Positions 234 through 64,000 of a stretch of 64,000 nucleotides of DNA are shown here, in pieces. The notes under the pieces are model-generated. The model had not been told where the DNA came from, ran no database searches, and was given only the letters and a program-made list of their open reading frames with translations. Each line of letters begins with the position of its first letter. Position 1 is the first letter of the stretch. The position numbers and the translations under genes were made by a program. The stretch spans positions 84,632,001 to 84,696,000 of the forward strand of contig NC_086108.1 of NCBI RefSeq assembly GCF_963921235.1, written 5' to 3'. Source of the stretch: Mobula hypostoma. Taxonomy: Eukaryota.

Positions 234-395
234 CTATGGAAAAATTAAACAAAATTTTTATTTTATTTAGAGATGCAGTGTGGAGTAGGCCCTTCTGGCC
301 CTTCGAACTGCACCACCACTGCAACCCCTGATTGAACCCCAACCTGGTGATGGGACAATTTACAATGACCAATTAACCTACGTAGTATGTCTTTG

Positions 396-1446
396 CAACA
401 CACATCAAAGTTGCTGGTGAACGCAGCAGGCCAAGCAGCATCTGTAGGAAGAGGTGCAGTCGACGTTTCAGGCCGAGACCCTTCGTCAGGACTAACTGAA
501 GGAAGAGTGAGTAAGGGATTTGAAAGTTGGAGGGGGAGGAGGAGATCCAAAATGATAGGAGAAGACAGGAGGGGGAAGGATAGAGCCAAGAGCTGGACAG
601 GTGATAGGCAAAAGGGGATACGAGAGGATCATGGGACAGGAGGTCCGGGAAGAAAGGCAAGGGGGGGGGACCCAGAGGATGGGCAAGAGGTATATTCCGA
701 GGGACAGAGGGAGAAAAAGGAGAGTGAGAGAAAGAATGTGTGCATAAAAATAAGTAACAGATGGGGTACCAGGGGGAGGTGGGGCCTTAGCGGAAGTTAG
801 AGAAGTCAATGTTCATGCCATCAGGTTGGAGGTGACCCAGACGGAATATAAGGTGTTGTTCCTCCAACCTGAGTGTGGCTTCATCTTGACAGTAGAGGAG
901 GCCGTGGATAGACATGTCAGAATGGGAATGGGATGTGGAATTAAAATGTGTTGCCACTGGGAGATCCTGCTTTCTCTGGCGGACAGAGCGTAGATGTTCA
1001 GCAAAGCGGTCTCCCAGTCTGCGTCGGGTCTCGCCAATATATAAAAGGCCACATCGGGAGCACTGGACGCAGTATATCACCCCAGTCGACTCACAGGTGA
1101 AGTGTTGCCTCACCTGGAAGGACTGTTTGGGGCCCTGAATGGTGGTAAGGGAGGAAGTGTAAGGGCATGTGTAGCACTTGTTCCGCTTACACGGATAAGT
1201 GCCAGGAGGGAGATCAGTGGGGAGGGATGGGGGGGGACGAATGGACAAGGGAGTTATCTAGGGAGCGATCCCGGCGGAATGCAGAGAGAGGGGGGGAGGG
1301 AAAGATGTACTTAGTGGTGGGATCCCGTTGGAGGTGGCGGAAGTTACGGAGAATAATATGTTGGACCCGGAGGCTGGTGGGGTGGTAGGTGAGGACCAGG
1401 GGAACCCTATTCCTAGTGGGGTGGCAGGAGGATGGAGTGAGAGCAG
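396..1446 (-). mobile_element. Penelope-like element (Neptune-type) 3' fragment: linker, GIY-YIG endonuclease, 3' UTR/pLTR
   Basis: GVIYCVQCSRCGLLYIGETRRRLGDRFAEH motif, Cys-rich linker CKRNKCYTC, 9-bp TSD atgtctttg at 387-395 and 1447-1455. Confidence 0.9.
458..493 (-). ncRNA. Minimal type I hammerhead ribozyme motif, intact core
   Basis: Minus strand AGTC-CTGACGA-agggtctcggcct-GAAA-C-GTC-GACT; stem I AGTC/GACT. Confidence 0.8.
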
Positions 1447-1899
1447 ATGTCTTTGACTGTGGGAGGAAACCAAAGCACCTGGGGAAAAACCCATGTATCC
1501 CATAGGAAGGATGCACATGGAGACTCCTTACAGATGATGCTGGATTTGAACTCTGGCACCCTGAGCTGTAATAGTACAGTGGTAACCGCTTTACTACTGT
1601 GGCACCCATCTTTTAAGAGTTCCATTGATCTCAATTGTCCGGCAAAGGAAGATAACAAAAAATCCATTTTGCATGTTAATTAATGACCAGATGGTGAGCC
1701 AGTACCAGGACATTTAATAGCAGCTGCTATAGGTTAGATCTGCCTTTATACCTTAAAACATAATTTCATCACAAAGCTGCAGCCATGGAACAGGGCTTTT
1801 GGATCAAACAGGCAAGATACAAACTAACAAGATGAGCAAAATAAACAATAGCCAGAAAATTAGTGAATTAAATGCCAAAATTACATACATAAATTTCAT

Positions 1900-24605: not shown

Positions 24606-24726
24606 CTCGGCCTGAAACGTCGACTGCGCCTCTTCCTATAGATGCTGCTTGGCCTGCTGCGTTCACCAGCAACTTTGATGTATGTTGCTTGAATTTCCAG
24701 CATCTGCAGAATTCCTGTTGTTTGAG
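24606..24726 (+). mobile_element. Penelope pLTR mini-insert, truncated within hammerhead stem II, inside the Tc1 transposase
   Basis: Near-identical to the reverse complement of 47992-48111. Confidence 0.85.
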
Positions 24727-26112: not shown

Positions 26113-26248
26113 AGTCCTGATGAAGGGTCTCGGCCCGAAACGTCGACTGTAACTCTTCCAATAGATGCTGCCTTGCCTGCTGTTTCCACCAGCATTTTGG
26201 GTGTGTTGCTTGCATTTCCAGCATCTGCAGATTTCCTCGTGTTTGCGT
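26113..26248 (+). ncRNA. Penelope pLTR mini-insert with intact minimal hammerhead (26113-26148)
   Basis: AGTC-CTGATGA-agggtctcggccc-GAAA-CGTC-GACT. Confidence 0.8.
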
Positions 26249-26254
26249 TTTTAA

Positions 26255-29090
26255 AAACTATAAGCTAAAGGAGCAGAATTAGGCCATTCAGCCCATTGAG
26301 TCCATCCTGACTCATTTATTATCACTGTGGAGTCCACTTTCCTGCCCTCTCCCCATAACCTCTGACACCTGACTAATCAACAACCCATCAACGGCTGCTT
26401 AAAGTATACTCAATGACTTGACCTCCACAGCTGTTTGTGGCAACAAATTCCACAGATTCACTACCCTCTAGCTAAAGAAATTCCACCTCATGTCTGTTCG
26501 AAATGGATGTCCCCCTATCTTGAGGCTGTGCCCTCTGGTCTGTGACTTACCCACCACAGGAAACATCCTTTCCGTATCAACTCTATCTAAACCTTTTAGT
26601 ATTCAATAGGTTTCAATGAGATCTCCCCTCATTCTTCTCAACTCCAGATTAACCCTTTCCTTCCTGGAATCATTCTGCTGAACCACCTCTGTACCCTGTC
26701 CAATGGCAGAAAATCTTTTCCTAGATATGGAGCTCAAAGTTGCTCACAATATTCCAAGTCCAGTCTGACCAATACCTTAAGCAGCCTCAGCATTATAGTC
26801 TTGCTCTTATATTCTAGTCCTCTCAAAATGAATGCTAACATTGCATTTGCCTTCCTTACCACCAACTCAACCTGCAAGTTAACCTTTAGAGAACCCTATA
26901 CAAGGACTCCCAAGTCCCTTTGCACCTTTAATTTTTCAATTTTCTTCCATTTAGAAAATAGACCACACCTTCATTCCTTCTACCAGAGTGCATGACCATA
27001 TACTTCCTTACACTATAAACCATCTGTCATTTCTTTGCCCATGCTTCTGATCTGTCTGCAGCCTCCTTGCTTCCTCAACACCACCTGCCCCTCTACCTAT
27101 CTTCACATCATCTACAAACTTGGCCACAAAGCCATCAATTCCATCTTCCAAATCACTGGCATATAATGTAAAAAGAGGTGGTCCCAACACCGACCCCTAT
27201 GGAACACCACTAGTCCCTGGCAGCCTACCAAAAAAGGTTCCCTTTATTCCCATTCCATGACTCCTGCCAATCAGACAATATTCTATCCAATGCTGGTATC
27301 TTTCCTATAATATCATGGCCTCTTACCTTGTCAAATGCCTTCTGAAAAATCTAAGTACACAAAATCCAACAATTCACCTTTGTCTCTCCTGCTTTCTCTT
27401 TCCTCAAAGAATTCCAACAGATCAGTCAGGCTGACCAGGGCCATTTTATCATGTGTCTCCAAGTACCCTGAAACCGCATTCTTAATAATGGACTCCAACA
27501 TCTTCCCAACCAGTGAGGTCAGGCTAGCTGGCCTATAATTTCGTTTCTTCTGCTTCCCTCCCTTCTTAAAGAGTGGAGTGATATTTATAATTTTCCAGTC
27601 CTCCAAAACCATTCCAGCATCCAGTGATACTTGAAAGATCATTATTAATGCCTCCACAATCTCTTCAGCTACCTTCTTCAGAACCCTGTGATGTCGTCCC
27701 TCTGGTCCAGGTGACTAATCAACATTCAGCTTCCCAAGCACTTTCTCCTTAGTAACAGCATCTACACTCACTTCTGCCCAGACTGTGTCATATTTCTGGT
27801 GTACTGCTTTTGCCTTCCACTGTGGAAGACTGACACAAAATTCTTAAGTTCACCTGCCTTTTCTTTGACCCCCACTATTGCCTCTCCAGTGTCATTTTTC
27901 AGTGGTCCAATATCAACTTTAACCTTTCCACTAATCTGTGCTATATTATGTGCCCTCCCTTTTCCTTTTCTGCCACAGTTGCTTCATCCTCCCTTTACGA
28001 TACTTCACCTTTGGGATGTATCTATCCTGCGCCTACTGAATTGCCCCAGAAACTCCATCCATTGCTGTTGTCATTATCCCTGCTAGTGTCCTTCCAAACA
28101 ACTTTGGCCAGCTCCTCTCTCATGCCTCTGTAATTCCCTTTACTCCACTGTAATACTGATACATCTGACCTTACTGCACAGTCCTGATGAAGGGTCTCAG
28201 CCCGAAACATCGACTGTTTATTCTTTTCCATAGATTCTGCCTGACCTGCTGAGTTCCTCCAGCATTTTGTGTCTATTGCCCTATCATCTGTCTGTCCTTC
28301 CTCAAAGTCTCACTACACTCTACTGCCTCATCCTCAGCCACATCACTCCAGGTGTCTCTTTCACACCCCACAGGTTAGTCCCGTTTTTCCAGCTTTCTAC
28401 CTATACCCAACTCCCTTTTCCTACCAATGTCTTAAGTGCCAATTTGTACCATGACTTCGAGTTGCTCACACTCCCCCTTTAGAATGCTTGGACCCGATCT
28501 GAGACATCCCTGAAACAGGCACTTGGGAAGCAACATATTATCCAGGTGTCTCTTTCACACCCACAGAATCTACTGTCTGTTCTACTAATTATGGAATCCC
28601 CCATTACCACTGCACGTCTCTTTCCCCACCTCACTCTCTTCAGAGCCGGAGACCTGGTTGCTGCAGCTTCCTCCAGTGGATTGCTCCACCACCCCCAAAA
28701 CCCCAACAGTATCCAAAATGATATACTTATTATTGACGGGAACAGCCAGAGGAGTACTTCTACACTGGCTGTCTATTCCCTTTCCCTCTCCTAATAGTTA
28801 CCCAGCTACCCAACTCCTATAACTTGGGGTTGACTACCTTCCTGTAACTCCTATATATCACCTAATTTTCCTGTAAGAGCCAAAGGTCATTGATCTGCAG
28901 CTCCAGTTCCTTAACATGGTCTCTAAAGGAGCTGCAGCTGGATGTTCTTCATGTAAATGTACTTTTGAGAGAGACCGGAGGGCTCCCAGGGTGTCCACCT
29001 CTAAAACAAAGAACATATCACATATCTCAATGCACTAGCTATGTATTAATATACAAAGAAAGAAAAATCTTACCAGAAACTTACTTAGAA
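26255..29090 (-). mobile_element. Decayed CR1 with several deletions, including an ORF1 esterase-like remnant
   Basis: RAVVMGDSII (GDSL/SGNH-like), NYRPASLTSLVGK, YLDF and AKFVDD motifs. Confidence 0.85.
28178..28279 (+). ncRNA. Penelope pLTR mini-insert with hammerhead (28178-28217), nested in CR1
   Basis: ACAGTC-CTGATGA-agggtctcagccc-GAAA-CATC-GACTGT; 6-bp stem I. Confidence 0.72.
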
Positions 29091-29941: not shown

Positions 29942-32900
29942 TTACATTAAATGAAAATATCGAATAAAAGGTCCCCAAATCTGTTCAAATTTAAATGAAG
30001 AATCATAAAGGTTACTTCTAATTTTCTCCAGATTCAAACATAAAATCGTCTGAGAAAACCAAAAAAAGGTAGTTGGAGCATTAAGCTCTTTCCAATGTTG
30101 TAAAATACATCTTTTCGCCATCAAAGTAAGAAATGCAATCATTCTACGGGCTGAAGGGGAAAGATTACTAGAAATTTTAGGTAGTCCAAAGATAGCAGTA
30201 ATAGGGTGAGGAGAGATATCTATATTTAATACCTTAGAAATAATATTGAAAATATCTCTCCAAAAAGTTTCCAAAGTAGGGCAAGACCAAAACATATGAG
30301 TTAAAGAGGCTATCTGCCCCGAACATCTATCACAGAAAGGATTAATATGCGTGTAAAAACGCGCTAACTTATCTTTGGACATATGTGCTCTATGAACCAC
30401 TTTAAATTGAATTAGGGAATGTTTAGCACAAATAGAGGAAGTATTAACTAATTGTAAAATCTGCCCCCAATCATCCACAGAGATGGTAAGCCCCAATTCC
30501 TGTTCCCAATCTACCCTAATCTTATCAAATGGAGCTTTCCTAAGTTTCATAATAATATTATAAATCATAGCCGATGCACCTTTCTGACATGGATTAAGGT
30601 TAATTATCGAATCTAAAATATATATAGGAGGAAGCATTGGAAAGGAAGAAAGTATAGTACTTAAGAAATTTCTAACTTGTAAATATCTAAAAAAATGTAT
30701 TCTTGATAAGTTATATTTATTAGATAATTGTTCAAAAGACATAAGGGAACCATCTAAAAATAAATCCAAAAACCGTAAAATACCCTTAGTCTTCCAAGTT
30801 TGAAAAGCGCGATCCGTAAAAGAGGGAGGAAAAAATATGTTACCTAAAATAGGAATCGCTAACCCGAATTGATTAAGATCAAAAAATTTTCTGAATTGAA
30901 ACCAAATACGCAAAGCATATTTAACGATCGGGTTAGAGACCTGCTTAAGGCGTTTCGAATCAAAGGGAAGAGATGAACCTAAAATAGAACCAAGTGTATA
31001 ACCCTGAACAGATTGTAATTCCAATGCTACCCATTTAGGAATAGATAGTATGTCCCGGTCAAGTAACCAAAATTTCATATGTCGAATATTAATAGCCCAA
31101 TAATAAAATCTAAAGTTAGGTAATGCTAAACCTCCATCTCTCTTAGCTTTCTGTAAATGTATTTTACCCAGTCTCGGATTCTTATTCTGCCAAATAAATG
31201 AAGAAATTTTAGAGTCGACTTTATCAAAAAAAGATTTAGGAACGAAAATTGGTAATGCCTGAAACACATATAAAAATTTTGGCAAAAAAAACATCTTAAC
31301 TGCATTAATACGACCAATCAAAGTTAAATATAAGGGAAACCATTTAGATGAAAGTTGAGTAATATGGTCTATTAATGGTAAAAAGTTAGTCTTAAATAAA
31401 TCTTTATGTTTACAAGTAATTTTAATCCCAAGATATGAAAGGTAATTATTAATCAATTTAAATGGAAATTTATAATATAAGGGAAGATGTTTATTAATCG
31501 GAAAAAGTTCACTCTTACTAAGATTTAATTTATAACCTGAGAAAAGACCAAATTGTGCTAATAACTCTAAAACAGCAGGAATAGATCTCTCAGGATTAGA
31601 AATATATAAAAGTAAATCATCAGCATAGAGTGATAATTTATGGAACTTTAATCCCCGAGTTATCCCAGTAATATTTGAAGATTCTCGAATAGCAATTGCA
31701 AGAGGTTCTAATGCAATATCAAATAATAGGGGACTAAGAGGACAGCCTTGTCGAGTACCACGAAAGAGAGGAAAAAAAGGTGAGTTTAAAGAGTTAGTAC
31801 GAACCGAGGCTACAGGGGAGTGATATAACAGTTTAATCCAGGATATAAATTTCAAGCTAAAATTAAACATTTCAAGCACCTTAAATAAATAAGGCCATTC
31901 TACTCTATCAAAAGCTTTCTCGGCATCTAAAGAAATAACACACTCAGGAACATTTTGTGAGGGAGTATAAACGATATTTAACAATGTACGAATATTATAA
32001 AAAGAGTAACGACCTTTAATAAAACCCGTTTGGTCTTCCGAAATAATAGAAGGAAGTACTTTTTCTAGTCTATTTGCTAATAACTTAGAAAAAACTTTAG
32101 AATCAACATTTAATAAAGATATTGGTCTATAAGATGCACATTGAGCAGGGTCTTTATCCTTCTTTAGTATTAAAGAAATTGATGCTCTATTAAAAGATTC
32201 CGGAAGTTTACCAAGTTTCAAAGAAGCCTCAAAAACCTTATAGAGCCAAGGAATCAATAAAGAAGCAAAACATTTATAAAATTCAACGGTAAACCCATCA
32301 GGGCCAGGAGCTTTCCCCAGATTCATAGAAAAAATAACATTCTTAATCTCATCCATTGTAATGGAAGTATCTAATAAAGAAGACATATCCTGTGAAATCT
32401 GAGGGAAGTCTAACTTATCTAAAAAATCATTCATATATTTAGAATCTCGAGGAGACTCTGATTGATATAAAGAAGAATAGAAATCACAAAAGGTTTGATT
32501 AATCCCCACATGATCCAATATCAATCGATCATTTTGGTTATAAATCTGATTGATTTGAGATTTAACATAATTAGATTTCAATTGATTAGCCAGCAGCTTG
32601 CCAATTTTATCACTATGAACATAAAAATCACTTCTTGTTTTCTTTAATTGGTTTACAATCGAGGACGAGAGTAGTAAACTGTGTTCCATTTGAAGTTCAG
32701 TTCTTTGTTTGTATAGCTCCTCAGAAGGAGCCATAACATATTTCTTATCAATTTCTTTAATCTTGTCCACAATTGCCATCTCCTCCTGCTTCTGTTTCTT
32801 CCTCAAAGCAACGGAATACGAAATAATCTGACCCCGAATATGGGCTTTAAAAGTGTCCCAAAGAGTGTTAACCGAAATATCTTCTGTATGGTTAATTGTA

Positions 32901-33718
32901 AAAAAAAGCTCAATCTGTTCATTCATAAAATTAACAAAGTCCGAGTCCTGAAGCAACAGCGAATTAAAACGCCATTGTCTATTGTTTGGTATATTGGCCA
33001 TAATTTTAATAGAAAGCTTAAGTGGAGCATGATCCGAAATGGTTATAGAATCATAATCACATTTAATCACTGAAGGAATGAGACGAGAGTCAATAAAAAA
33101 ATAATCAATTCTTGAATAGGAATGATGAACATGTGAAAAAAAGGAAAAATCTTTTTCCTGAGGATGCAGAAAACGCCAAATGTCCGTCGACCCAGAATCA
33201 GAAAGAAAAAAATTAATCAAATTTGCAGATTTATTAGGTAAAGTCCGTAAAGGAGCCGAACGGTCCAAAGCTGGAGATAAACAGGTATTAAGATCTCCGC
33301 CCCAAATCAATGAAAACTCGTTCAAATTCGGAAACTGATCAAACAATGATTTATAAAATTCCGGACAATCCATATTAGGAGCATAAACATTAACCAAAAC
33401 TACTTTTTTATTAAATAGTAAACCACTAACCAATAAAAATCTACCATTCGGATCAGAGATAATATCCTGTTGTATAAAAGTAACTGAGGAATCTATAAAA
33501 ATAGAGACGCCTCGAATCTTAGCATTGGAGTTCGAATGAAATTGTTGTCCCTTCCAGAATTTGAAAAAACGTAGTCTGTCCCCCCTCCGTACATGGGTCT
33601 CTTGTAAAAATAAAATTTGTGCTTTAAGTCTCCGGAACACTTTAAAAACTTTTTTTCTTTTAATAGGATGATTAAGACCATTAGTATTCCAGGAGACAAA
33701 ATTAATAATAGACTCCAT
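29942..33718 (-). CDS. L1 ORF2p (APE endonuclease, RT, CCHC), 1258 aa from the first ATG
   Basis: SWNTNGL, LQETH, GGDLN, SRIDY, SDH; GTRQGCPLSP, YADD; CDRCSGQIASLTHMFWSC; no stops. Confidence 0.96.
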   Translation of the reverse strand: MESIINFVSWNTNGLNHPIKRKKVFKVFRRLKAQILFLQETHVRRGDRLRFFKFWKGQQFHSNSNAKIRGVSIFIDSSVTFIQQDIISDPNGRFLLVSGLLFNKKVVLVNVYAPNMDCPEFYKSLFDQFPNLNEFSLIWGGDLNTCLSPALDRSAPLRTLPNKSANLINFFLSDSGSTDIWRFLHPQEKDFSFFSHVHHSYSRIDYFFIDSRLIPSVIKCDYDSITISDHAPLKLSIKIMANIPNNRQWRFNSLLLQDSDFVNFMNEQIELFFTINHTEDISVNTLWDTFKAHIRGQIISYSVALRKKQKQEEMAIVDKIKEIDKKYVMAPSEELYKQRTELQMEHSLLLSSSIVNQLKKTRSDFYVHSDKIGKLLANQLKSNYVKSQINQIYNQNDRLILDHVGINQTFCDFYSSLYQSESPRDSKYMNDFLDKLDFPQISQDMSSLLDTSITMDEIKNVIFSMNLGKAPGPDGFTVEFYKCFASLLIPWLYKVFEASLKLGKLPESFNRASISLILKKDKDPAQCASYRPISLLNVDSKVFSKLLANRLEKVLPSIISEDQTGFIKGRYSFYNIRTLLNIVYTPSQNVPECVISLDAEKAFDRVEWPYLFKVLEMFNFSLKFISWIKLLYHSPVASVRTNSLNSPFFPLFRGTRQGCPLSPLLFDIALEPLAIAIRESSNITGITRGLKFHKLSLYADDLLLYISNPERSIPAVLELLAQFGLFSGYKLNLSKSELFPINKHLPLYYKFPFKLINNYLSYLGIKITCKHKDLFKTNFLPLIDHITQLSSKWFPLYLTLIGRINAVKMFFLPKFLYVFQALPIFVPKSFFDKVDSKISSFIWQNKNPRLGKIHLQKAKRDGGLALPNFRFYYWAINIRHMKFWLLDRDILSIPKWVALELQSVQGYTLGSILGSSLPFDSKRLKQVSNPIVKYALRIWFQFRKFFDLNQFGLAIPILGNIFFPPSFTDRAFQTWKTKGILRFLDLFLDGSLMSFEQLSNKYNLSRIHFFRYLQVRNFLSTILSSFPMLPPIYILDSIINLNPCQKGASAMIYNIIMKLRKAPFDKIRVDWEQELGLTISVDDWGQILQLVNTSSICAKHSLIQFKVVHRAHMSKDKLARFYTHINPFCDRCSGQIASLTHMFWSCPTLETFWRDIFNIISKVLNIDISPHPITAIFGLPKISSNLSPSARRMIAFLTLMAKRCILQHWKELNAPTTFFWFSQTILCLNLEKIRSNLYDSSFKFEQIWGPFIRYFHLM

Positions 33719-34443
33719 AAATCCTAAAATCAACCCACAACAAGGAGGATTGACAATAGGCGTGACCCACAAACCCGGAGAGGAAACAGAACATACAAAA
33801 GATACCGGGGAAAAGGACGCAACCAGTACTTCAATAATGTATATAGCCCAAAGAAAAACAAACTAAAACGTGAAGCCCCTCCCACCACCCCCCACCCCAA
33901 GACCCCAAGGCAAAATCTAAAGCAGACCCGCCAGAAAGAAGCAAGCGCTAAAACTACCCCCATGACTTCCGGTATACGCTCCCTAAAAAAAAGGTATAAA
34001 TATGAAAAGGATCAGCTAATTGTAAAACAGTAAAAAAATAAGTAAAAAAAAAGTTAGCTCAATTAGAATACACACAGAACAGAACAAAAGCCGGAAAATA
34101 TATATTAAAAAAAACCACAATAAACCTCAAACTCATGAATAGACACAGCAACAAAAAAAAAATAGGATTATTAACATAAAGTGATTATAAAAAGCAAAAC
34201 AGAATAAAATTTAAAAAAAAACTACAAAATTTAAGGCCGCACAGGAAATACGTAAGATGACAAAAGGGAAGTAACCACCCAGAATCCCCTGGGAAAAGAA
34301 AGAAATGACGCAGTTAAAAAGAAAGTTTAGCAGCCATATTAAGAAATCAAAAGTAAACTTTTCTGCCCAAATAGGGCACAGAAAAGTTAAAACCAACCAA
34401 TTCACAGCCTCCGATCAACGGAGAAAATTAAAAAAAAAGGCAA

Positions 34444-35343
34444 TTAAGATGTTGAAGATGAAAGTTGATCCAGATAACTCTGGGCATCCGATGGAGAATC
34501 AAAAAAACGAAGGGCTCCATCTAACATGCGAATCCTTAGACGTGCAGGGTACAGCAGCGCTGGTCTTAAATCCATCTTATAGAATTCCGACATCACGGAT
34601 CTGTAACGGACCCGTTGGTCCCAGATTGGTTTACTGAAATCTTCCACGAATCGGAACTTAAGATCCGAAAAATCAATGAAACCTTTAGATCGAGCGAATC
34701 GAAACAGTCTCTCCTTGTCTTGAAAGTAATGAAAACGTAAAATAACATGCCTAGGTCTATCTGACCTAGACGAGTATGATGGGATTCTGTGAACACGATC
34801 CAGTAGCGGTGGTTGGTCAGGAAATACAGTAGGGAATGCATCTTTTAAAAGTTGAGAGAAATATTTCATGGGGTTGTTAGCTTCAACGGCTTCTCTCACG
34901 CCGATCATTCTTAAATTCTGCCGTCGCATTCTAGATTCCAAGTCAGAGTTTTTAAAAGTCAAAAAGTCAAGTTTCTTCTTCATTACATTAATTGTTTCTT
35001 CGATTTTCCCCATCTTAAGCTCACTTTGTTGCGCGAATTTTTGAAGATCAGATATAGCCGACTGATGTTCCGCAATACATGTTTGCATCTTATCAATTAA
35101 ATCGGCAATTTTCTGGAAATTAGTTGAGATTTCCGCATGAATCAGATCTTTAACAAAGCCTGCAATTTCCGTACGAATCATCTCCCTAACAGAGGTTGAA
35201 ATTTCCCTCTGAATTAACTCCGATATCGCTTTCAAAGTCACCGGTGATTCAGTCGGAGGGAGATCCGTAGCTTTCGGTTTAGCCGAAGGTTTACCATCCT
35301 TGCCGTTTTTCCCGTTCTTAGACATAGCAGATCTAAGTATCAT
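34444..35343 (-). CDS. L1 ORF1p (coiled coil, RRM, CTD), 299 aa
   Basis: DLESRMRRQNLRMIGVRE, DRVHR, RPRHVILRF, FVEDFS and LLYPARLRI motifs. Confidence 0.92.
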   Translation of the reverse strand: MILRSAMSKNGKNGKDGKPSAKPKATDLPPTESPVTLKAISELIQREISTSVREMIRTEIAGFVKDLIHAEISTNFQKIADLIDKMQTCIAEHQSAISDLQKFAQQSELKMGKIEETINVMKKKLDFLTFKNSDLESRMRRQNLRMIGVREAVEANNPMKYFSQLLKDAFPTVFPDQPPLLDRVHRIPSYSSRSDRPRHVILRFHYFQDKERLFRFARSKGFIDFSDLKFRFVEDFSKPIWDQRVRYRSVMSEFYKMDLRPALLYPARLRIRMLDGALRFFDSPSDAQSYLDQLSSSTS

Positions 35344-36355
35344 CCAATTGTCAGAGAGTTCAGTTTAATTCAAAGTATTATAAAAATTGATGCCTTAATG
35401 GTTAATTAAAGTATAGCTGACCATAGAGTAAAAAAACTCAGAGGTAATGGAGCGAGTCAAGAACGCGACTTCACTCCATGAGCGCTACCGGAAGTCCCCA
35501 ACGTAAAATTTCTATGCGGCATTTTACACATTAAAGATGGAATATTTGAACATTAGTTAAATCCTTGGTACTACAGTTCCTTGCAGTGTTAATTACAAAC
35601 TGACATTCGCCTAGTATGTCTCTAACCCACAAAGAAAAATGACAGTTGTGCAGATAAACAGAGTCCAGGTTGTGGATCATTCAAATACCTGCACAGCTTC
35701 TTAGACAAGTGAAAACTATTTGTCAAAGCATGAGATTCAAAAAACGAGTTGTCTTTTTCATATGTCAAACAGAAAAATTCTTGATTAAATCTAAATGACA
35801 TTTTCCATGCTTGTGGCCACTATATTCCCATATCCCCAATGTACAAAACATAAAACTTCAATTTTTTTCCTATTATTTGTAAGAAAGAATTCAATATCGT
35901 CCAATTCCCCACAGCTAGGTCATTTTGGCACAACAAATGCATAGTATTCATGAAGTAAAAATTAAATTCCCAATCTCCAGGATGCCTCCACTGCAAATCA
36001 CTGTTTTCACAAAGGGAACAAAAATCTTTGGGAACAGCCCTGGAAGAATTCTAGCTTTAGTTAAAAGCAATTATAAAAATATTCAATAAGCAAAAATCTC
36101 AAGTTTAATGTGCATAGTCATGATTCATCAACTGATCTATATAAAATCAAGCTAAAGCAGCTTCTGTACACTTGCAGTTCCTCCATAACTGATGAAATAC
36201 TTGAAAGGTTTTTCCTGTGGCAATACTCAGCAATGAATAAAAAAAATTTGATGGTCACGGAGATGTACATATTATTTGTAGTTTGCAGATAACTTTCCAG
36301 CTCTCATACAAAGCTTCCTTTTTTATACCACAAAAAGAGCCAATCCAACACTTAC

Positions 36356-37329: not shown

Positions 37330-37432
37330 GCAAGCAACACACACAGAATGCTGGAGGAACTCAGCAGGCCAGGCAACATCTACGGAAAAGAGTACAGTCG
37401 CCGTTTCAGTCCGAGACCATTCATCAGGGCCC
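37330..37432 (-). mobile_element. Penelope pLTR mini-insert with mutated hammerhead
   Basis: Minus strand CTGATGA-atggtctcggact-GAAA-CGGC-GACT; cleavage triplet is GGC rather than GTC. Confidence 0.75.
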
Positions 37433-38716
37433 TTCGTGCAGCATCAATCTGTGCACTCAAAGCTTAAAGCTGCTGTAGAGGGATCTATTTCAAAAGAGAT
37501 AAAGACTAGTTTCCGCTGGTGATGTTTCAATGAATACTATTTGTCAAAGGAAATCCCAATATTTCATATAGCCATATGAATAGAGGAGGCCATAGCTTTT
37601 TGAATCTGCTCTGGCATTTAATAAGACGAATACCATGGTTGATCTGCTGGTAACCACACACCCTCCTCTTCCGACCCCTTCATCTGCATGTCTACCAAGA
37701 ACCTATCTACTTCTGCCTTGAAAATGCTCAGATGTTGCTTCCACTATCTTTGAGAAGTTCAAGAGTCATGATCTCTCAAACAAACTGCACCTCATGCCGT
37801 AAATGGATTGCTTTAAAAAAAAACCAAGTAACCTTTCTAAATTCTGTCACACAAGAAAACATCTTTTCCACATCCAAGATCACCTTACTATTTGAAATGC
37901 CATTGGTTACGAGCGTAGCCTGTCCAACCTTGCCTGAAGACATCCACACATTCCAGCTATTAAGTCTCACTCAGTGAAGGTTTACTATTTCCAGCATTAT
38001 TAAGATCCTTTCTCAAATAAGGACACCAGTAGGATAACAGTATTCCAGATGAACCTCCTGTCTATAACTGAAGAATAAGACCACCCACCTACCACGACAT
38101 TTATAATTTCCTGTCAACACCCATGTATACATAGTCTGGCACTCAATGTCACTTTATGTACAATCATTCTATGTGTATAAGCTACCCTTACGTACTTAAA
38201 TTTATTGTTTTTTTTAAAGATTGTTCTCTATGGTTATTTTGTTTTTTTTAAAAATGGTACCTCGGATTCACAGTAAGAATCATTTTGCTCTCCTTTAGAT
38301 TTGTGTACTGAAGAACGACAATCTTGAATCTTTCTTAATTTGTTCTACTTAGCATTCTTCAAATAATACAGTAATACAATCTCCCCCCCAACTCAAAGCT
38401 CTGCAAACAATTTATATTGAATGCTTTTTTTATTTCTATTCCCTGACAAAATCAACAACTGCACATCTTTTCTCCATCATATTCCATCTGCCAGGTTTCT
38501 GCCTTCTCACTCAACCCATTGCCTATGTAACCTTCTTCGGTTACCACCCATCTGTATCATAACAAGTTTAGCAGCTCATTCCTGCTATCAGTTGAGACTC
38601 AATGGGCAGGGAACTTTTTTCCCCAAATACCTTACTGTTCCTGTCAATACTTAATAACATTCAATAGATATACAAAGATAAGAAATTTCATAAAACTGAA
38701 GAATATTTTAAAGGCT

Positions 38717-40920: not shown

Positions 40921-41164
40921 TCACCTCCTAACTTGCACGTTATAATCAGAACTCATGGAAAGTTTCACATAACCAATTTTCCAGGTTGTCCCATCAAAAA
41001 TGGCCAGTCCAAGGAAAGGTCAACCTACAGTGTTAAATCCATTTCTCTCCACAGATGCCGGCCTGATCTGCTGAGTTTAAGGCCTAATTTGTTGGGTATT
41101 TTAGAGGATCTCTCCTGGGTCCAGCCCATACCTACCATTACAAAGCAACTCTAACTTCTTAGAA

Positions 41165-41815: not shown

Positions 41816-42539
41816 TACCACCATTACTTGTTTTTACTTTAAGAATCTGGAAACTACAGGCTTTTATAACTTAACAGTTCCAACATCACTTTTCCTCCCC
41901 TCTTTCATACTTGTATCTCCTCCAGATTATCCACCTACAAATAAGACCAGGAGCAGAATTAGGCCATTTGCCCATCAAGTCTGCTCTGCCATTCCATTAT
42001 GGCTGATTCATTATCCCTCTCAACCCCAAAAATTAGAACCTTTGATCGTCTCCTAGCTGGCACCACTGTTTACATCACGCTCCCATTTCCCACCCCATCA
42101 CAGACATTCCTTTTATTTAATATATCCTACCCCTACTACGCAATTTAAAACATACTCACTTTCCAGCAATAACCTGCTGGGGAATCTCAGCAGGTAAGCA
42201 GCAGCAGTAGAGAGGAAAAGGAATGGTTGACAGAGTAGTCCTGCATTGCCAGTCCCATTCTCCTCTTTATACTGGGCAGCTTCCCTTTCAGTCCTAATTC
42301 TGGGGTTTTAACCAAAAACACTGACAATTCTTCCACCTCTCCCACCAATGCTGCCTGCCTCACCAATTCGGATAAAAAATTATCAATCCATAATGCTAAA
42401 GTTATGTTTGTACAAAACTAAATTTACAGTTCATATTTTGGTACTAACGAGCATAAGGCAACATGAAAGATCAAACAATGGCAAGAAGTTAAAATTTTAA
42501 GTTTCTTGGTAACAAGTATAATTGTTTCTGTTACTGAAT

Positions 42540-43270
42540 CTTAGAGTACAAATTAGTCTAATGCAGAACCTCTTCCCTCACCACCATTCAAGACCCCAAA
42601 CAGTCCATTCAGCAAGTCTGTCATGTTCCTCAATTGTATCTGCTGCTTCCAGCGTGGCCTTCTCTACATTGGTGAGACCCGACAGAGATCGGGGGAACAC
42701 TTTATTCATTACCTGCGCAAGATCTCCCAGTGCTAGCCATTTCAATTCAGCTTTCCATTCCCTATCTGACATGTCTATCCATGCCCTCCTCTACTGCCAC
42801 AAGGAGGAGCAACACCTCATATTCTTTCTGGGTACTCACCAACCTGATGGAATAAACATCGATTTCTCCAACTTTTGGTAATTTAAACTAACCCCTCTCC
42901 TCTCTTTTTCCTTTATCCATTCTGGTTACCTTTTCTCCCCATTTTCTTCTCTCCACTTCCCCACAAACTCCCACTGGCTCCCCTCCTCCTTCCCTATCTT
43001 CCACTGTTCTCTATTAGATTCCTTCTTCAGCCCTTTATCTCTTTCACCTAACCCCTCCCAGCTTCTTATTTCACCCACCCACCTACCTCACCTGGTCTCA
43101 TCTAGCATTTGCTAGATTGTACTTCTCCTCCACTACCTTATTCTGGCTTCTACCCCCTTCCTTTCCTGTCACGATGAAGGGCTTGGCCTGAAACATTGAC
43201 TATTTATCCTCCTCCATAGATGCTGCCTGACTTAGAGTTCCTCCAACATTTTGTGGGTGTTGCTCAAATT
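42540..43270 (+). mobile_element. Decayed Penelope fragment: GIY-YIG remnant, 3' UTR and degenerate hammerhead
   Basis: ASHFNS...SDMSIHALLYC...EEQHLIF...QPDGINIDFSNF; cacgatga...gaaacattgac at about 43170-43200. Confidence 0.85.
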
Positions 43271-43330
43271 CCAAAGACATGCTTTCACAGCAAAGCCATT
43301 TGATTGAGACTGCTAACCCTTTTTACAAAC

Positions 43331-43454
43331 CTTCATCACTGACACAGTCCTTTACAACAGCAAGGGGATGGTGCCGTGGTGGTTTACTGAGAGGCTGACG
43401 TCGACTTTTTGCCTTCTTCTTGGATTTCATTTCCTTCATATATTGCTCTGCCAT
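43331..43454 (-). CDS. KDM4A: Linker exon MAEQYMKEMKSKKKAKSRRQPLSKPPRHHPLAVVKDCVSDE
   Basis: tag acceptor, G|gtttgt donor, 124 nt, phase 0 to 1. Confidence 0.92.
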
Positions 43455-44949
43455 CTAGGAAATGAAGAAATGTGGAATTGTAACATTTCCTCAATTCAGA
43501 AGGTTATATAGCAGCTGGAAAACCAGAACATTTTGGTAACAAGTATAATAATTATGTTTGTCAACATGTCCTTTTTTTGCAAGTCTTCAGTTGGCAAATA
43601 ATTTAAACAAAATTCAAATGGAAAACCCATGGAATTATGGAAATGGGGTCACAATGTGGCAAGAATCCTGGCATTCAATCCATCTTCAGAGATACACTGG
43701 TATCTTTCAGAAAGAATCCAACAAGTGCTAATGATTATATGCATTTTATAACATAGAGTGAAGGGACAAAGGACAAAAGCATTCAGCACACCAGATCCAA
43801 GCTGATATTTTGCATTCCAGAAGGTTCCTCCAAATACACTCATCCAACTTCTCCACATTTCTCCCCCATTCCTTTCCCTAGCTTCCCTCAAGATGTTGAG
43901 GTGACAAGTAGGTACAATTTGATAGCTCCACATTAGCAAATTAAGCAGAAAAGGCTCGGTCTGAATTCCATACTGGATTTATCAGAGTATTTTTGTACCA
44001 CTAACTGTTAACTCTGATTTCTACAAAGTAAACATCTTTTCGAAATTATTCCCAAACTTCCCTAAATTTTCAAATCCTTCCACGATGTTTTCTTGCAAAA
44101 GTAGTTCATGCAGTAGTTCATCCATCGCAAAATAAGAAGATAGCTTTCCAGTTCCAGTATCGCCTTAGTTGCAGCTGTCTAAAAACTACCTAGGAAACTG
44201 ATTTTCATACAAGGCCAGAAGTATGCACAAAATTGAGAACTTGGTATATTCAAGATCAATTGAACTTAAAAAAATCAACCCTCCAAAAATAGACAATGAT
44301 TTACTTACTATTTTTGTTGATATTTTTACCTTCAGCTCCACTGCCGTACAGATTTGATGGCACCTAGAGCAGGCATTTCAGCTGATATTAACACCCAAGA
44401 TGATTTATTATTTGGACTCAGTTGTGCAATTGGGTTATGCAAATATCACAAGTTGGTCCAAATGGTGTTCCAGAATTGATCCTTCTAGGCAACTATTTCT
44501 TGTTCTTTCTGGCAAAAAGTAACTACATATTTTCTTAACCTATTTTTAAACTAAATTCTAAACTTTATCTATATTAAAAATATTCTATATTTTTAAGGAT
44601 TAGATTATAACCCTTTGAAAGAAGAATAAAAGGTTGAATATACATATAACATTCCAAAAACATTACCCAATGAAAACACTATCACCTGGAACAACATTCA
44701 TAAAAAGGACTCACACTTATTCTGTGGGTCTTTTGAAAAGTTAATCAATTTAAAAATAACTGTTTACACAGATTACTTCAACCTAACATTGATTCACTCA
44801 ATGGATTCTTGAGTAATTTGCTCTCCAAAAAACCAAGTTCTCAAAAATATGAGTCAGTTTGATGCACATAATTTTGGGTTAATTGCTCAAGATTTAGAGC
44901 ATAAGTGAAGTGCAATCAAGTAGTATGAAATTACTACATCTATGATTAC

Positions 44950-47124: not shown

Positions 47125-50100
47125 ACAAGATGGTGTCGCAAACAGCGGCCATACCAACTTTACAGTGTACTACTGATTTCTGCAATTTCCATCCCATTTC
47201 TTTTTAAAATGCTAATAATCACATTAGATATGATCGACTGACTTTTCTGAACATTGGGAAGACGGCATTTACCCGCAATGTCCCGCCTTTTCTACACTGG
47301 GAACCTCTGTTTACATGATCCACGGGAGGCTTATTTATTACACCACTCTTACCTCGTAACATGGTGCTGAAGGCAAGAGAGAAGGGCCGGCATCCTGGTG
47401 AGGTTGAGACGGCATGCTAATTGGCCGCCGTTCCCTAATGTACTCCTGGCTACCGCTCCGTTACTGGACAACAAGCTGTGCGAACTGAGAGCCAGAATCT
47501 CCTATCAGCGGGAAACAAAGGAGTGTAACATTTTGTGCTTCGTGGAAACCTGGTTGACAGAGGAGATACTGGATCATGCCATCAAGTCCTCTGGGTGCTC
47601 CCTGTTCCAGGCAGATAAGTCTAAAAACCTCTTTGGAAGAGCAAAGGTGGGGTATCCTTCACAGTCAATAATGCTTGGTGCAACCCCCGAAATGTTCATG
47701 CCCTCAAATCCTTTTGTTCCTCAGATCTGGAGTACCTTGTGCTGCTGTGTAGACTTTATTGGCTGCCTAGGGAGTCCACTGTTGTTATTATCACAGCTGT
47801 GTATATTCCGCCACAGACTGATACTGACCTGGCTCGGCTCTCAAGGAACTGTACGAAACCATCAGCACCCTGGAGACTCTACACCCGGAGGCTGCTTTCA
47901 TCGTCGCCGGAGACTTTAATTGAGCGTCCCTGACTAAAGTCTCTCCAAAGTTTTGTCAACACATCCAGGTGAGTAAACGGAGATAGTATACTCAAACAAC
48001 AGGAATTCTGCAGATGCTGGAAATTCAAGCAACATACATCAAGGTTGCTGGTGAACGCAGCAGGCCAAGCAGCATCTATAGGAAGAGGCGCAGTCGACGT
48101 TTCAGGCCGAGACCCTTCGTCAGGACTAATATAAGATAGTATCCTCGACCACTGCTACTTTCCCTTTTGCAGTGCTTACAAAGTGCTCCACCATCCACCG
48201 CTTGGAAAGTCTGATCACTCCTTCATCCTGCCTCTGGACACTTACAGGCAGAAGTTGAAACAAGAGGCGATCATAGTTAAAACGTTCCACTGTTGGACTG
48301 ACCAATCAGTCTCCATGCTACAGGACTGCTTTGATGATGTCAACTGGAATATCTTCCGTGATGAAGATATATCCGAGTTCATGGAAGGGGTCACAAGCTT
48401 CATCCAGAAGGACAGAGGATGTTGTCCACCCTCCCCCCCTAAAAAAAAATCGGTCAGGGTCTATCCAAACCAGAAACCCTGGATCAACAGCTCCGTGCAC
48501 GCTGCACTTACAGCATGAGACAGAGCATTCACTGCTGGTAACCACCAGGAACTCAAGAAATGCAGCTATGATCTACACTAAGTCATCAAGGCAGCAAAAC
48601 GACAATACAGGAACAAGTTCCAGACATAACTCTCCACCAACAACACCCACAGCCTATGGCAAAGTGTACACACCATCAGAGACTTCAAAGCTAAATGCAG
48701 CGGTGCCACTAACATTACTGCCTCTCTCCCAGACAAGCTAAATTGTTTTTACACTTGGTTCGATGCCACCAAAAATGAGTCCCCGAGGAGAGCTGCCGAT
48801 GTGACCTGCACCGTGGCCATCTCTGATGCTGAAGTACGCAGGTGCTTCCAACGAGCGGACAGCCACAGGGCTGTGGGACCGGACAGCATCTCTGTGCGGA
48901 TACTCGAAAAGTGCACCGCACAACCAGCTGGCATGTCTGCAGACATTTTAATCTCTCCCTCTCCCAGTGTAAAGTGCCCTCCTGCTTCAAAACATCCACC
49001 ACTGTCCCTCTACCTAAAAAGACCCAGGTAACATATCTGAACAACTGGTGTCCTGTCACACAACTCAATAATAAGCAAACGCTTTGAGAGGCTGGTCAAG
49101 GACTACATCTGCAGCATGCTACCGCCCACACTGGACCCCGTACAATTCACCTACCGACACAACCGATCGACAGATGACACAATAGCCACAGTTCTTCACA
49201 CCATTCTTACACACCCGGAGAAGAGGGATGCTGATGTGAGAATGCTGTTCTTGGGACTACAGTCCAACATTCAACACCATAATTCCCTCCAGGCTTGACA
49301 AGAAGCTCAGAGACCTTGGCCTTCAAGTCCAAGACCAACTGCCTTGTGCAGTTGGTCTTGGACTTAGTGTCAGATCGCTGGAAGGTGGTAAGAGTGGGCT
49401 CCCTCACCTCTGTCCCTCAGGACTGTGTCTTACTCCTTTATTCTCTGTATACCTATGACTGTGTTGCCACCCACAGCTCCAATCTCCTAATTAAATTTGC
49501 TGACAACACGACACTGATTGGCCTAATCTCAAATAGTAACAAGGCAGCCTTACAGAGAGGAGGTCATCACTCTGACACAGTGGTGTCAAGAAAACACTTC
49601 TCTCTCAATGTTGCAAAAACAAAGGAGCTAGTTGTGGACCACAGGAAGAATGGAGACAGGGTAACCCCTATTGACATCAATGGATCTGGGGTTGAGAGGG
49701 TGAACAGCTCTAAGTTCCTCGGTATACACATTACTGAGGACTTCACTTGGTCTGTACATACTGGCTATGTGGTGAAAAAAGCACAATAGCTCCTCCTTCA
49801 CCTCAGATGGCTGAATAAGTTTGGCATGAGTCTCCAAATCCTTAGGACTTTCTACAGAGGCACAATTGCGAGCAGCCTGACTGGCTGTATCACTGCCTGG
49901 TATGGGAACTGTATTTCCCTCAATCGCAGGACTCTGAAAGAGTGCTGCAGACAGCCCAGCACATCTGTGGATGTGAACTTCCCACTATTCAGGACATTTA
50001 CAGCGACAGGTGCGTAAAAAGGGCCTGAAGGATCATTGGGGTCACCCCAACGACAAACTGTTCCAACTGCTACCATCCAGGAAACGGTACTGCAGCATTA

Positions 50101-53568: not shown

Positions 53569-53973
53569 CTGTTTAAAAAAAAAGCAGGAAATTTTCAACT
53601 ATCCATCTTAAAACAACCAGGCAAAGCATTTATTTCTTAATCACATAATTTCTCCAGTATTTCCAAGGCTTGTTCCAATTAAAATATTAACTGATAAATT
53701 ATACAAAAGAAGCATTTTCTGCCATTGGCCTTCATTAATGTTATTCTATTGTTCCTAGTTGAGAGATGTTACTACTGTTTTTAGCACGGTATTGCCAGCT
53801 AATGTTCACTGCCAGCTAATGTTCACTTTCGGGTTACTTCAGGGAATAATTGCATTTAAACAAAGATGATGCAAGTTGGTCCAATTAACATTTTTAATGT
53901 ATCAGTAAACATGCTCTGATAAAATAGGCAGCATATTCAAAAAAGAATTAAAACCCATTATTTGCAATTTCAA

Positions 53974-54070
53974 GCAACACACATCAAAGTTGCTGGTGAA
54001 TGCAGCAGGTCAAGCAGCATCTGTAGGAAGAGGTGCAGTCGACGTTTCAGGCCGAGACCCTTCATCAGAA
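53974..54070 (-). mobile_element. 97-nt Penelope pLTR mini-insert beginning at the hammerhead CTGATGA box
   Basis: Perfect 14-bp TSD atttgcaatttcaa at 53960-53973 and 54071-54084. Confidence 0.88.
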
Positions 54071-55354
54071 ATTTGCAATTTCAACCCTTCTGCCAATAGT
54101 TTATAGTAGCAGACAAAGCAAACTTAAAACGCAAGTTGGATTATGTTAGGTAACATGCTATTATTTGACATTGCCTTGGATATGCAATACTCCATTTGAG
54201 AAAAGCAGTATTCATTTTTATTTTAAAATTCAACTGTTCTCTGGCCATTATATACTTGAAGGCCACTATAGAACCTGCGTGGTTAAGACATAACATCTTT
54301 GTAAAATAATAATAATCCATGGGACATGAATGATATTGGCCATGCTTCCTTTATTGTGCGTTCTATTCAAGATGATAATCTTGTGCAAGTTCTGTGAAAT
54401 GCTTGTCTTCGTGGTGATAATACTTAAAACAGTGAAATTCACGGTGAATACAAATAATTTGCAAGTGTGTAAGGATGCACTTAACATGCACACTAAACTA
54501 TTGCCAATTATTTTCTTCCATGCAATTATGCATACAAGTGTTCTACAACATAATATAAAAAAGACTCGAGCATCAAAATTTAAAATTGTGATGCCTTTCA
54601 TATTATTCAACACATACTTGTCAACCATGCTTTCTACTAGCTTGGAAATGGAAGGAACAAAATATGAACATTTGCCACCAAAAAATGTAACACATTAGAT
54701 TTAGAAGCTGAAATAGAAAGCCTGTACTGATCAGTGAGTTGCTTTGTTTCCCAAAACACTACAAAGTAAACTGAAGAATGAATTCTCAATGGCCTTTTTC
54801 AGGAAAAATTGCACATTTAATATTTTAAACAGCTTTTCTCCCTTCTTTTGAGAATTGCCTAGTGTCTATTCTGGGGAAAATCAGGTGTACCAAGAAAAAG
54901 GCAACTTGCATTTTTCCAAAGCCTACATTTTAAAAAGGAACAAGACACAAAGGACTGCTTTAGGCCCAAGGCCTTAATTAGTTCACAGGCAGGCTGTGTA
55001 CTGTAACCACAAAACACCAGCTTTAGAGTTTCAAAAAATGTACCAACTCATACTGCTATTCCACTTTGTGCTCTCATCACTTTTGCCACCAGAGATACCA
55101 GATAGGTCAGAATTCCAAAATGTGTTCAAAAATACTTATTGGTTGAAGTGCAAAACACTTGTGGTTGTCTTGAAGGCAATAGGCGATTGCAAGAAGAATT
55201 CGGATGAGAACAGCATCGGAGTGTAAGAATTGCCTTTTAGTTTTAACCATTCCTATTTTATATGCAGAATTTGAGTAACATTTCTAAAATCTGAATCCCT
55301 TTCCACAATGTCATTAAAAGCATTCAGCCGTTAGATCAATTTTAGATAGAGATA

Positions 55355-63903: not shown

Positions 63904-64000
63904 AGCAACGCACATCAAAGTTGCTGGTGAACGCAGCAGGCCAGGCAGCATCTGTAGGAAGAGGTGCAGTTGACGAAGGGTCTCGGCCTGAAACGTCGAC
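63904..64000. mobile_element. Penelope pLTR with an inversion junction at the hammerhead (runs off window edge)
   Basis: Minus-strand copy up to gcagttgacg, then plus-strand tgacgaagggtctcggcctgaaacgtcgac. Confidence 0.8.

What the first reader, a model, noticed from the sequence alone, without database searches (positions are those of the whole stretch)
53960..54084. Stand-alone ~100-140 nt hammerhead inserts with their own TSDs and clustered 5' ends
Seen: 53974-54070 has a perfect 14-bp TSD and 47994-48133 a 13-bp TSD with one mismatch, so these are independent insertions, not eroded long elements. In six short copies (24606, 26113, 28178, 37432, 48130, 54068) the 5' end falls within or just upstream of the ribozyme, while the 3' ends vary; at 48 kb and 54 kb the 3' end shares microhomology with the target. 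Random truncation should not cluster like this. Inference: either a dedicated non-autonomous mini-retroelement (retrozyme-like RNA mobilised by the Penelope RT/GIY-YIG), or the ribozyme fold is a strong RT stop or template-switch point. The ends mostly lie upstream of the core and not at the predicted cleavage site, which needs explaining. This is the best candidate here for an undescribed system.
Basis: partly seen in the sequence, partly recalled or inferred. Interest (0 to 1): 0.7.

Follow-up and report, generated by a model that had tools for sequence, protein, structure and literature searches.

The report
Penelope stubs starting at hammerhead edge
These 90-140-base inserts are real, separately inserted end-pieces of a very abundant Penelope-type jumping gene in a ray-like fish rather than a separate mini-element, and many begin at one spot just in front of its small ribozyme motif, which likely marks where the element's RNA starts.

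Summary
Observation largely confirmed. Both target-site duplications (TSDs) are real (14 bp perfect; 13 bp, one mismatch), but two of six short copies have none. Six of nine clear copies have a 5' end within 8 nt at the front edge of a minimal hammerhead; contigs of two public DNA runs peak at the same base. The 3' ends are not freely variable: they form two classes about 35 nt apart, the known Penelope 'tail'. Short copies group by subfamily with long GIY-YIG-bearing copies, so they are stubs of a Neptune-type Penelope-like element, not a separate retrozyme. A ribozyme-fold stop is unlikely: ends lie on the far side of a weak fold and 31 nt upstream of the cleavage site. Best model (inferred): reverse transcriptase starts at the tail site of the RNA's 5' repeat and runs off a fixed RNA 5' end, probably the transcription start. 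The parts are published; the sharp 5' peak was not found in eight paper searches. The scan has noted this same pattern many times before, in this and other genomes. Modest interest.

The parts
53974..54070 (-). 97-nt stub: minimal hammerhead (core starts 54068; predicted cleavage between 54041 and 54040) plus 3' part of the pLTR, short 3' end class
   Evidence: 98% identical to long copy 1 over 83 nt
53960..53973 (.). TSD copy (14 bp, perfect); its first letters also match the element's tail (microhomology)
54071..54084 (.). second TSD copy
47994..48133 (-). 140-nt stub with intact core (48123) and the 35-nt tail; 4-6 extra letters at its 5' end; TSD 47981-47993 / 48134-48146 (13 bp, 1 mismatch); lies in a decayed reading frame that continues across one TSD copy
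24606..24724 (+). stub starting inside stem II (+12/13), with tail; blunt insertion into a Tc1-type transposase gene, no TSD
26113..26252 (+). stub of a second subfamily starting at the A of helix I (-4), with tail; probable 10-11 bp TSD
28180..28279 (+). stub of an older subfamily starting at -4/-5, short 3' class, no TSD found
37334..37429 (-). stub of an older subfamily starting at -1/-2, short 3' class, 11-bp TSD with 1 mismatch set 9 nt back from the 5' end
63904..64000 (.). head-to-head (fold-back) copy: minus arm begins 1 nt after the predicted cleavage site, plus arm begins at core +2 and runs off the window
395..1447 (-). long copy 1: 5'-truncated element with thumb/linker/GIY-YIG end of the ORF (1257-787), pyrimidine-rich 3' UTR, hammerhead and short 3' end; 9-bp TSD
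457..494 (-). minimal type I hammerhead of long copy 1 (helix I 494-490 with 461-457; core from 489; cleavage predicted 462|461); position 493 is the genome-wide 5' end peak and the A of an initiator-like YYANWYY motif
42568..43273 (+). long copy 2: decayed older-subfamily element with GIY-YIG remnant, 3' UTR and hammerhead remnant (43167-43200)

Best explanation
The inserts are short retrocopies of the terminal repeat (pLTR) of a Neptune-type Penelope-like retrotransposon, likely made when the element's reverse transcriptase starts at one of two internal sites about 95 or 130 nt behind the hammerhead and runs off a fixed 5' end of the RNA, probably the transcription start at the first base of hammerhead helix I. 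Shown: same sequence as the 3' end of GIY-YIG-bearing copies; TSDs or blunt junctions; two 3' end classes 35-40 nt apart; a 5' end peak at -4 relative to the core; ribozyme copied uncut. From published PLE biology: transcripts start in an upstream pLTR, so each RNA carries the repeat at its 5' end too; the enzyme primes internally at two 'tail' sites and its product shortens when the template's 5' end is shortened; hammerhead cleavage is not needed. Inferred: priming in the 5' copy of the repeat gives a 90-140-nt run-off cDNA (stub), priming in the 3' copy gives long, randomly truncated copies; a free cDNA end can snap back through the hammerhead's own 4-bp complementarities and give head-to-head copies such as the one at 63.9 kb. 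The stubs would be dead-end by-products.
For: Stubs are 94-98% identical to long copy 1 or group with long copy 2. ORF has GIY-YIG, a C-x4-C-x2-C linker and 94% identity to a Mobula protein that also holds RT motifs. Tail is 35 nt, as the 30-40 nt between two RT start sites in Anolis PAc (PMC11167929). Loose ends into long, unlike flanks peak at 493 in two DNA runs: 21 of 255 and 13 of 147 partly laid contigs, 1-2 expected per base; 492 (9) and 489 (7) follow. Summed contig depth falls 2.1-2.5-fold at the hammerhead's 5' edge and is then flat over 680 nt. Position 493 is the A of a YYANWYY motif, one of 6 in the 392-nt UTR. No listed loose-end row at the cleavage site. PAc product length follows the template 5' end and needs ORF sequence downstream of the start sites.
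Against: No RNA 5' end was measured; contigs cannot show one. No untemplated cap G at the four TSD-flanked junctions. In D. virilis Penelope the start lies 46 nt upstream of a 75-nt intron whose 3' end meets helix I, i.e. about 120 nt upstream of the hammerhead (PMC2377424; PMC4209133). The initiator-like motif may be a by-product of helix I. Part of the 493 peak can be pooled from older subfamilies that diverge from the reference just upstream (one consensus starts purine-rich). Contig depth is not copy number and only 24 of 276 loose-end rows were shown. No full-length copy was seen. PAc is a Poseidon element and its priming is described as not homologous to the target, whereas the 54-kb junction shows microhomology.
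Confidence: 0.55

Rival explanations
1. The RNA's 5' end is made by processing, not by transcription start: a 5'-3' exonuclease trims longer RNA back to the protein-bound hammerhead, or splicing at the acceptor-like site just upstream creates the boundary; RT then runs off that end.
For: Peak sits at the first paired bases of helix I. Upstream 290 nt are 79% pyrimidine with one AG, then two AGs at 496 and 492 and branch-like motifs. D. virilis intron ends at helix I. The 48-kb and 54-kb stubs start right after these two AGs. No cap G seen.
Against: Fold is weak. No shared upstream exon in stubs or loose ends (agreement 0.40-0.44); no splice-type joint among those listed (many rows not shown).
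Confidence: 0.17
2. RT copies a long RNA but releases or switches template after passing the hammerhead, because the new cDNA folds back on itself.
For: Head-to-head copy at 63.9 kb turns at a 4-bp complementarity inside the hammerhead; contigs show joints that go back by one hammerhead length; self-priming proposed for PLEs (PMC3846280).
Against: cDNA fold only about -4 kcal/mol and not the helix I hairpin; a template-fold stop should leave ends 3' of the fold, and none of the listed peaks lies there.
Confidence: 0.12
3. A dedicated non-autonomous mini-element: stubs are themselves transcribed from an internal promoter and re-mobilised in trans.
For: Stubs at 24.6 and 48.0 kb are 99% identical, share three substitutions absent from long copy 1 and the same 3' end. 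Non-autonomous PLE derivatives exist (PMC8557442; bioRxiv 10.64898/2026.07.22.740005).
Against: Stubs fall in at least three sequence groups, two of which contain a long copy; the twin stubs have different 5' ends; no tandem units or poly(A) in the window; PAc needs RNA downstream of the start sites, which stubs lack.
Confidence: 0.1
4. No special end: ordinary steep 5' truncation plus a homology-edge artefact where subfamilies diverge in the pyrimidine tract.
For: Old and young subfamilies diverge right upstream of 493; a similar artefact explains the 507 row. PLEs are heavily 5'-truncated.
Against: Four stubs have TSDs 0-9 nt from the hammerhead, so nothing upstream was inserted; loose ends at 489-493 are long and unlike each other, unlike the short subfamily-edge rows at 457/458; a profile search found no excess of shorter copies; simulations.
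Confidence: 0.06

Closest known systems
EN+ Penelope-like elements, Neptune/Nematis type, 5'-truncated and solo-pLTR copies (PMC8557442, PMC3846280)
   Same: C-terminal GIY-YIG, CX2-5CxxC linker, hammerhead in the pLTR, optional 30-40 nt tail, TSDs of 9-14 bp or blunt microhomology junctions, head-to-head inverted copies
   Different: Truncation is described there as frequent but not as piling up at one base; here about half of the copies seem to stop at the hammerhead's front edge
Minimal hammerheads (min-HHR) of metazoan PLEs (Cervera and de la Pena 2014, PMC4209133)
   Same: Type I, 4-5 bp helix I, extra base after A9, G10.1-C11.1 (or G-U), no helix III with palindromic ACGU; mostly single motifs attributed to truncated PLEs
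   Different: Helix II is short (3-4 bp); that paper proposes self-cleavage as the processing step, while ends here avoid the cleavage site
Anolis Poseidon PAc (Frangieh et al. 2024, PMC11167929)
   Same: Two internal RT start sites about 100-140 nt behind the hammerhead giving the tail; uncut RNA is the template
   Different: Other clade; priming reported as non-homologous to target; no 5' end peak reported in the parts read
Animal non-LTR retrozymes (PMC7229834; bioRxiv 10.64898/2026.07.22.740005)
   Same: Non-coding, type I hammerhead, pLTR-related, dispersed monomers occur
   Different: Defined by tandem units and cleavage-to-cleavage circular RNAs with mostly canonical ribozymes; stubs here are solitary, TSD-flanked and begin upstream of the cleavage site

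Membership tests
EN+ PLE (Neptune type) | C-terminal GIY-YIG endonuclease | tested here: met
   PF01541 E 2.2e-4, 21.9 bits, just under the 22.6 cut-off; ORF ends 390 nt before the 3' end
EN+ PLE (Neptune type) | RT upstream of the endonuclease in one ORF | tested here: inconclusive
   Window copies are truncated; homologues P0001 (94% identical) and P0011 carry RT motifs, RVT_1 only E 0.008
EN+ PLE (Neptune type) | CX2-5CxxC linker between RT and EN | tested here: met
   C-x4-C-x2-C in the ORF 1257-787; definition from PMC8557442
EN+ PLE (Neptune type) | Clade placement by RT phylogeny (Neptune versus Nematis) | not tested
EN+ PLE (Neptune type) | Optional 30-40 nt tail | tested here: met
   35-nt extension in 3 of 9 copies
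EN+ PLE (Neptune type) | Tandem pLTR-ORF-pLTR full-length structure | not testable with these tools
   no full copy in the window; no genome held
PLE min-HHR | CUGAnGA / GAAA / NUH core, extra base after A9, palindromic 15.2-16.2, 4-5 bp helix I | tested here: met
   84.7% of 59 cells paired versus 20-43% when slid, but no covariation above shuffles; no Rfam hit
PLE min-HHR | Self-cleavage (as dimer or protein-assisted) | not testable with these tools
   predicted monomer fold is an inactive hairpin
Non-LTR retrozyme | Tandem units each with a hammerhead | tested here: not met
   all window copies solitary or head-to-head; a few single-contig joints going back 35-90 nt exist
Non-LTR retrozyme | Unit bounded by the cleavage site; circular RNA | tested here: not met
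   5' ends 26-33 nt upstream of the cleavage site in 6 of 7 short copies; circular RNA itself not testable
Dedicated non-autonomous element (SINE-like) | Short copies form a lineage of their own | tested here: not met
   tree and identities of 9 copies mix long and short copies; small sample

The most novel reading that the evidence does not exclude
In ray Penelope elements the hammerhead is not a cutter but the 5' leader of the RNA: transcription starts at its first base, and the 100-140-nt leader-plus-tail unit is an RNA of its own that stubs can express and that the element's protein re-inserts, a self-renewing ribozyme-headed mini-retroelement born again in each subfamily.
Probability: 0.12. 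Interest if true: 0.65.

Novelty: new variant of a known kind. Interest (0 to 1): 0.35.

Why it matters
How Penelope-like elements copy themselves and what their hammerhead is for are open questions. If the stub ends mark the RNA start, the ribozyme lies at the very front of the transcript, is copied uncut, and thousands of stubs give a base-precise map of the promoter and of both priming sites, testable by CAGE and by the existing in vitro assay. The inserts themselves are most likely inert.

Tried and rejected
No whole genome is held, so ends could not be mapped in an assembly. Rfam gave no hammerhead hit; 2 unrelated sub-threshold miRNA matches. Pattern scans: 0 hits in viral contigs; 3 hits in metagenome contigs were 21-nt chance matches without further similarity. 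Three raw-read runs laid 0 reads, so no read-level end map. The 507 loose-end row (14 contigs) looked like a branch-point stop but its consensus begins with the family's own allele where long copy 1 differs, so it pools nearby junctions. Rows at 457/458 are older-subfamily edges. Two runs guessed to be RNA show a steeper depth drop than DNA in organism A but not in B; contigs cannot show level or start, so this is not used. One search used a mis-registered helix I; one search is the valid count. Cap-G and shared-exon signals: not found. Decayed copies at 26.0, 29.2, 41.0 and 42.2 kb were left out of the 9-copy counts because their ends are uncertain (the null there includes real copies). My first reading said Poseidon; the linker motif points to Neptune/Nematis.

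Full report
Context. The window is vertebrate DNA rich in retroelements; the closest proteins to its GIY-YIG frame are from Mobula hypostoma (94%) and Hypanus sabinus, so a ray is the likely source (inference). No whole genome is held. Self-comparison and a profile search find nine clear copies of one 80-140-nt unit: two long (395-1447 minus; 42568-43273 plus), six short (24.6, 26.1, 28.2, 37.4, 48.0, 54.0 kb) and one head-to-head (63.9 kb). Four to six much more decayed pieces were seen and left out of the counts.

The observation. The 54-kb insert is 97 nt with a perfect 14-bp TSD and the 48-kb insert 140 nt with a 13-bp TSD and one mismatch; 0 and 1 of 1492 random flank pairs score as well. 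The 48-kb boundaries are backed by a decayed host reading frame that continues across one TSD copy (no Pfam match for it). Of the other four short copies, 37.4 kb has an 11-bp TSD with one mismatch (8 of 1492), 26.1 kb a weak or probable one (95 of 1492), and 24.6 and 28.2 kb none. The 24.6-kb copy sits in a Tc1-type transposase gene whose codon spacing is kept across the insert, so it is a blunt insertion. Long copy 1 has a 9-bp TSD (2 of 1492).

What the unit is. Long copy 1 ends a frame with a GIY-YIG domain (E 2.2e-4, just below Pfam's cut-off), preceded by a C-x4-C-x2-C linker, the mark of Neptune and Nematis PLEs (PMC8557442, passages). Homologues carry RT motifs upstream. About 290 nt of pyrimidine-rich UTR follow, then the hammerhead in sense orientation, then 95 nt to the 3' end. 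The motif fits the published minimal PLE hammerhead: core, extra base after A9, no helix III, palindromic ACGU, 4-5 bp helix I (PMC4209133, parts 1-2 of 4 read). The nine copies show pairing (84.7% of 59 cells) but no covariation beyond shuffles, and Rfam does not detect it. The short copies are therefore the 3' tip (pLTR) of this element. They do not form their own lineage: 24.6, 48.0, 54.0 and 63.9 kb are 95-98% identical to long copy 1, while 28.2 and 37.4 kb group with long copy 2 (support 0.93) and 26.1 kb lies between.

The 3' ends. Five of nine copies end within 0-5 nt of one point, three end 35-40 nt later, one lies between. This is the optional 30-40 nt PLE tail, shown for Anolis PAc to be the distance between two internal RT start sites (PMC11167929, parts 1-2 of 4 read; its supplementary figures are not visible, and a term search of three text files found nothing). 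At 54 kb the target matches the tail at 9 of 11 letters; at 37.4 kb 6 of 11; at three others 3 of 11.

The 5' ends. Six of nine lie within 8 nt (495-488 on long-copy coordinates, core C3 = 489); four truncation nulls give this in 0, 2, 11 and 133 of 100000 trials. Public contigs agree. Laid on 425-565, the largest listed loose-end rows in both DNA runs are at 493, the A of helix I: 21 of 255 and 13 of 147 partly laid contigs against 1-2 expected, with long flanks unlike each other (agreement 0.40-0.44); 492 (9) and 489 (7) follow in run X2. Only 24 of 276 rows were shown, and the wider lay listed no row there among 6 of 1072 shown. Summed contig depth in X1 is 7.3-9.0 million over 416-487, averages 3.5 million (2.3-4.9) over 524-1207 and has almost no slope there; the tool warns that this is not copy number, and older subfamilies inflate the core. 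Older subfamilies also diverge from the reference just upstream of 493, which can pool some junctions there; the 507 row is such an artefact. TSDs within 0-9 nt of the hammerhead in four stubs show that the short form is nonetheless real.

Mechanism. RT moves from the tail towards the RNA's 5' end, so a fold that stops it should leave ends on the 3' side of the hammerhead; the ends are on the 5' side, 26-33 nt upstream of the predicted cut. The RNA fold is unremarkable (-11.7 kcal/mol, z -0.3 to -1.2) and the cDNA fold weak (about -4). The simplest reading is that the template ends there. PLE transcripts start inside an upstream pLTR (PMC2377424, passages; review PMC6765202, passages), so an RNA has the repeat at both ends. 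In PAc the product shortens with the template's 5' end, the protein needs ORF sequence behind the start sites, and hammerhead mutants insert normally. Priming in the 5' repeat would thus give a 90-140-nt run-off, and priming in the 3' repeat the long copies (inference). Position 493 is the A of an initiator-like motif. The 63.9-kb copy turns inside the hammerhead at a 4-bp complementarity, as snap-back of a free cDNA end would give; head-to-head PLE copies are attributed to self-priming in PMC3846280 (passages and Discussion), which favours an antisense template instead. Against the start model: no cap G at four junctions, no direct RNA end, and the D. virilis start lies about 120 nt upstream of its hammerhead with an intron ending at helix I. 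An acceptor-like site lies at the same place here, which keeps the processing rival alive, though no shared upstream exon is seen.

Comparison and novelty. It works like, and by the tested features is, a truncated or solo-pLTR copy of an EN+ PLE. It fails the retrozyme tests (tandem units, cleavage-site boundary; PMC7229834 passages; bioRxiv 10.64898/2026.07.22.740005 parts 1-3 of 5, supplements closed and could bear on monomer ends). Single min-HHRs from truncated PLEs are in print. A sharp 5' end peak at helix I was not found in the texts read after eight searches; the library lacks most subscription papers and repeat databases, and the dimer-cleavage paper of Lunse et al. was seen only as cited in the review. 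Earlier notes of this scan report the same pattern and reading many times (98 findings in at least 16 genomes hold the search words); they are unchecked leads, not support, and my start-site reading was written down before I saw them.

Verdict. Real feature, known element class, one unexplained and testable regularity. Interest 0.35; new variant of a known kind.

Noticed in passing
window 25901-26112: Decayed head-to-head hammerhead pair (minus arm about 25979-26066, plus arm 26068-26101) directly upstream of the 26.1-kb stub; a near-identical 11-nt A-rich motif occurs at 25968, 26102 and 26253, as if the same target was used twice. A 14-bp direct repeat (25904/26068) crosses this arrangement and is unexplained.
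   Followed up: partly
window 41004-41077 (+), 42161-42359, 29200-29253 (+): Older decayed pLTR copies; the 41.0-kb one also appears to begin at the helix I edge, and 42.2 kb is a head-to-head pair.
   Followed up: partly
window 42506-43549: Long copy 2 lies inside a perfect 17-bp direct repeat, with 45 nt before and 260 nt after it that do not match the element; possible transduction or unrelated duplication.
   Followed up: no
window 514-490 (-) and 452-442 (-): Two splice-acceptor-like sites (pyrimidine tract plus YAG) flank the hammerhead; the second YAG, followed by ATG in most copies, is kept in all nine.
   Followed up: partly
window 29942-35364 (-): L1-type element with uninterrupted 1306-aa ORF2 (endonuclease, RT, zinc-binding) and 306-aa ORF1; may be young.
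   Followed up: partly
window 22951-23038: Long near-perfect palindrome that scores below threshold against a miRNA family; probably a MITE-like inverted repeat.
   Followed up: no
window 37430-37436 (-): The 7-9 extra letters between TSD and hammerhead repeat part of the core/stem II sequence, perhaps RT slippage.
   Followed up: no
run X1/X2 contigs on window 456-506: Several single contigs join the hammerhead's 5' edge back to its 3' edge (about 35-45 nt), i.e. tandem hammerhead dimers that could form the active dimeric fold.
   Followed up: no
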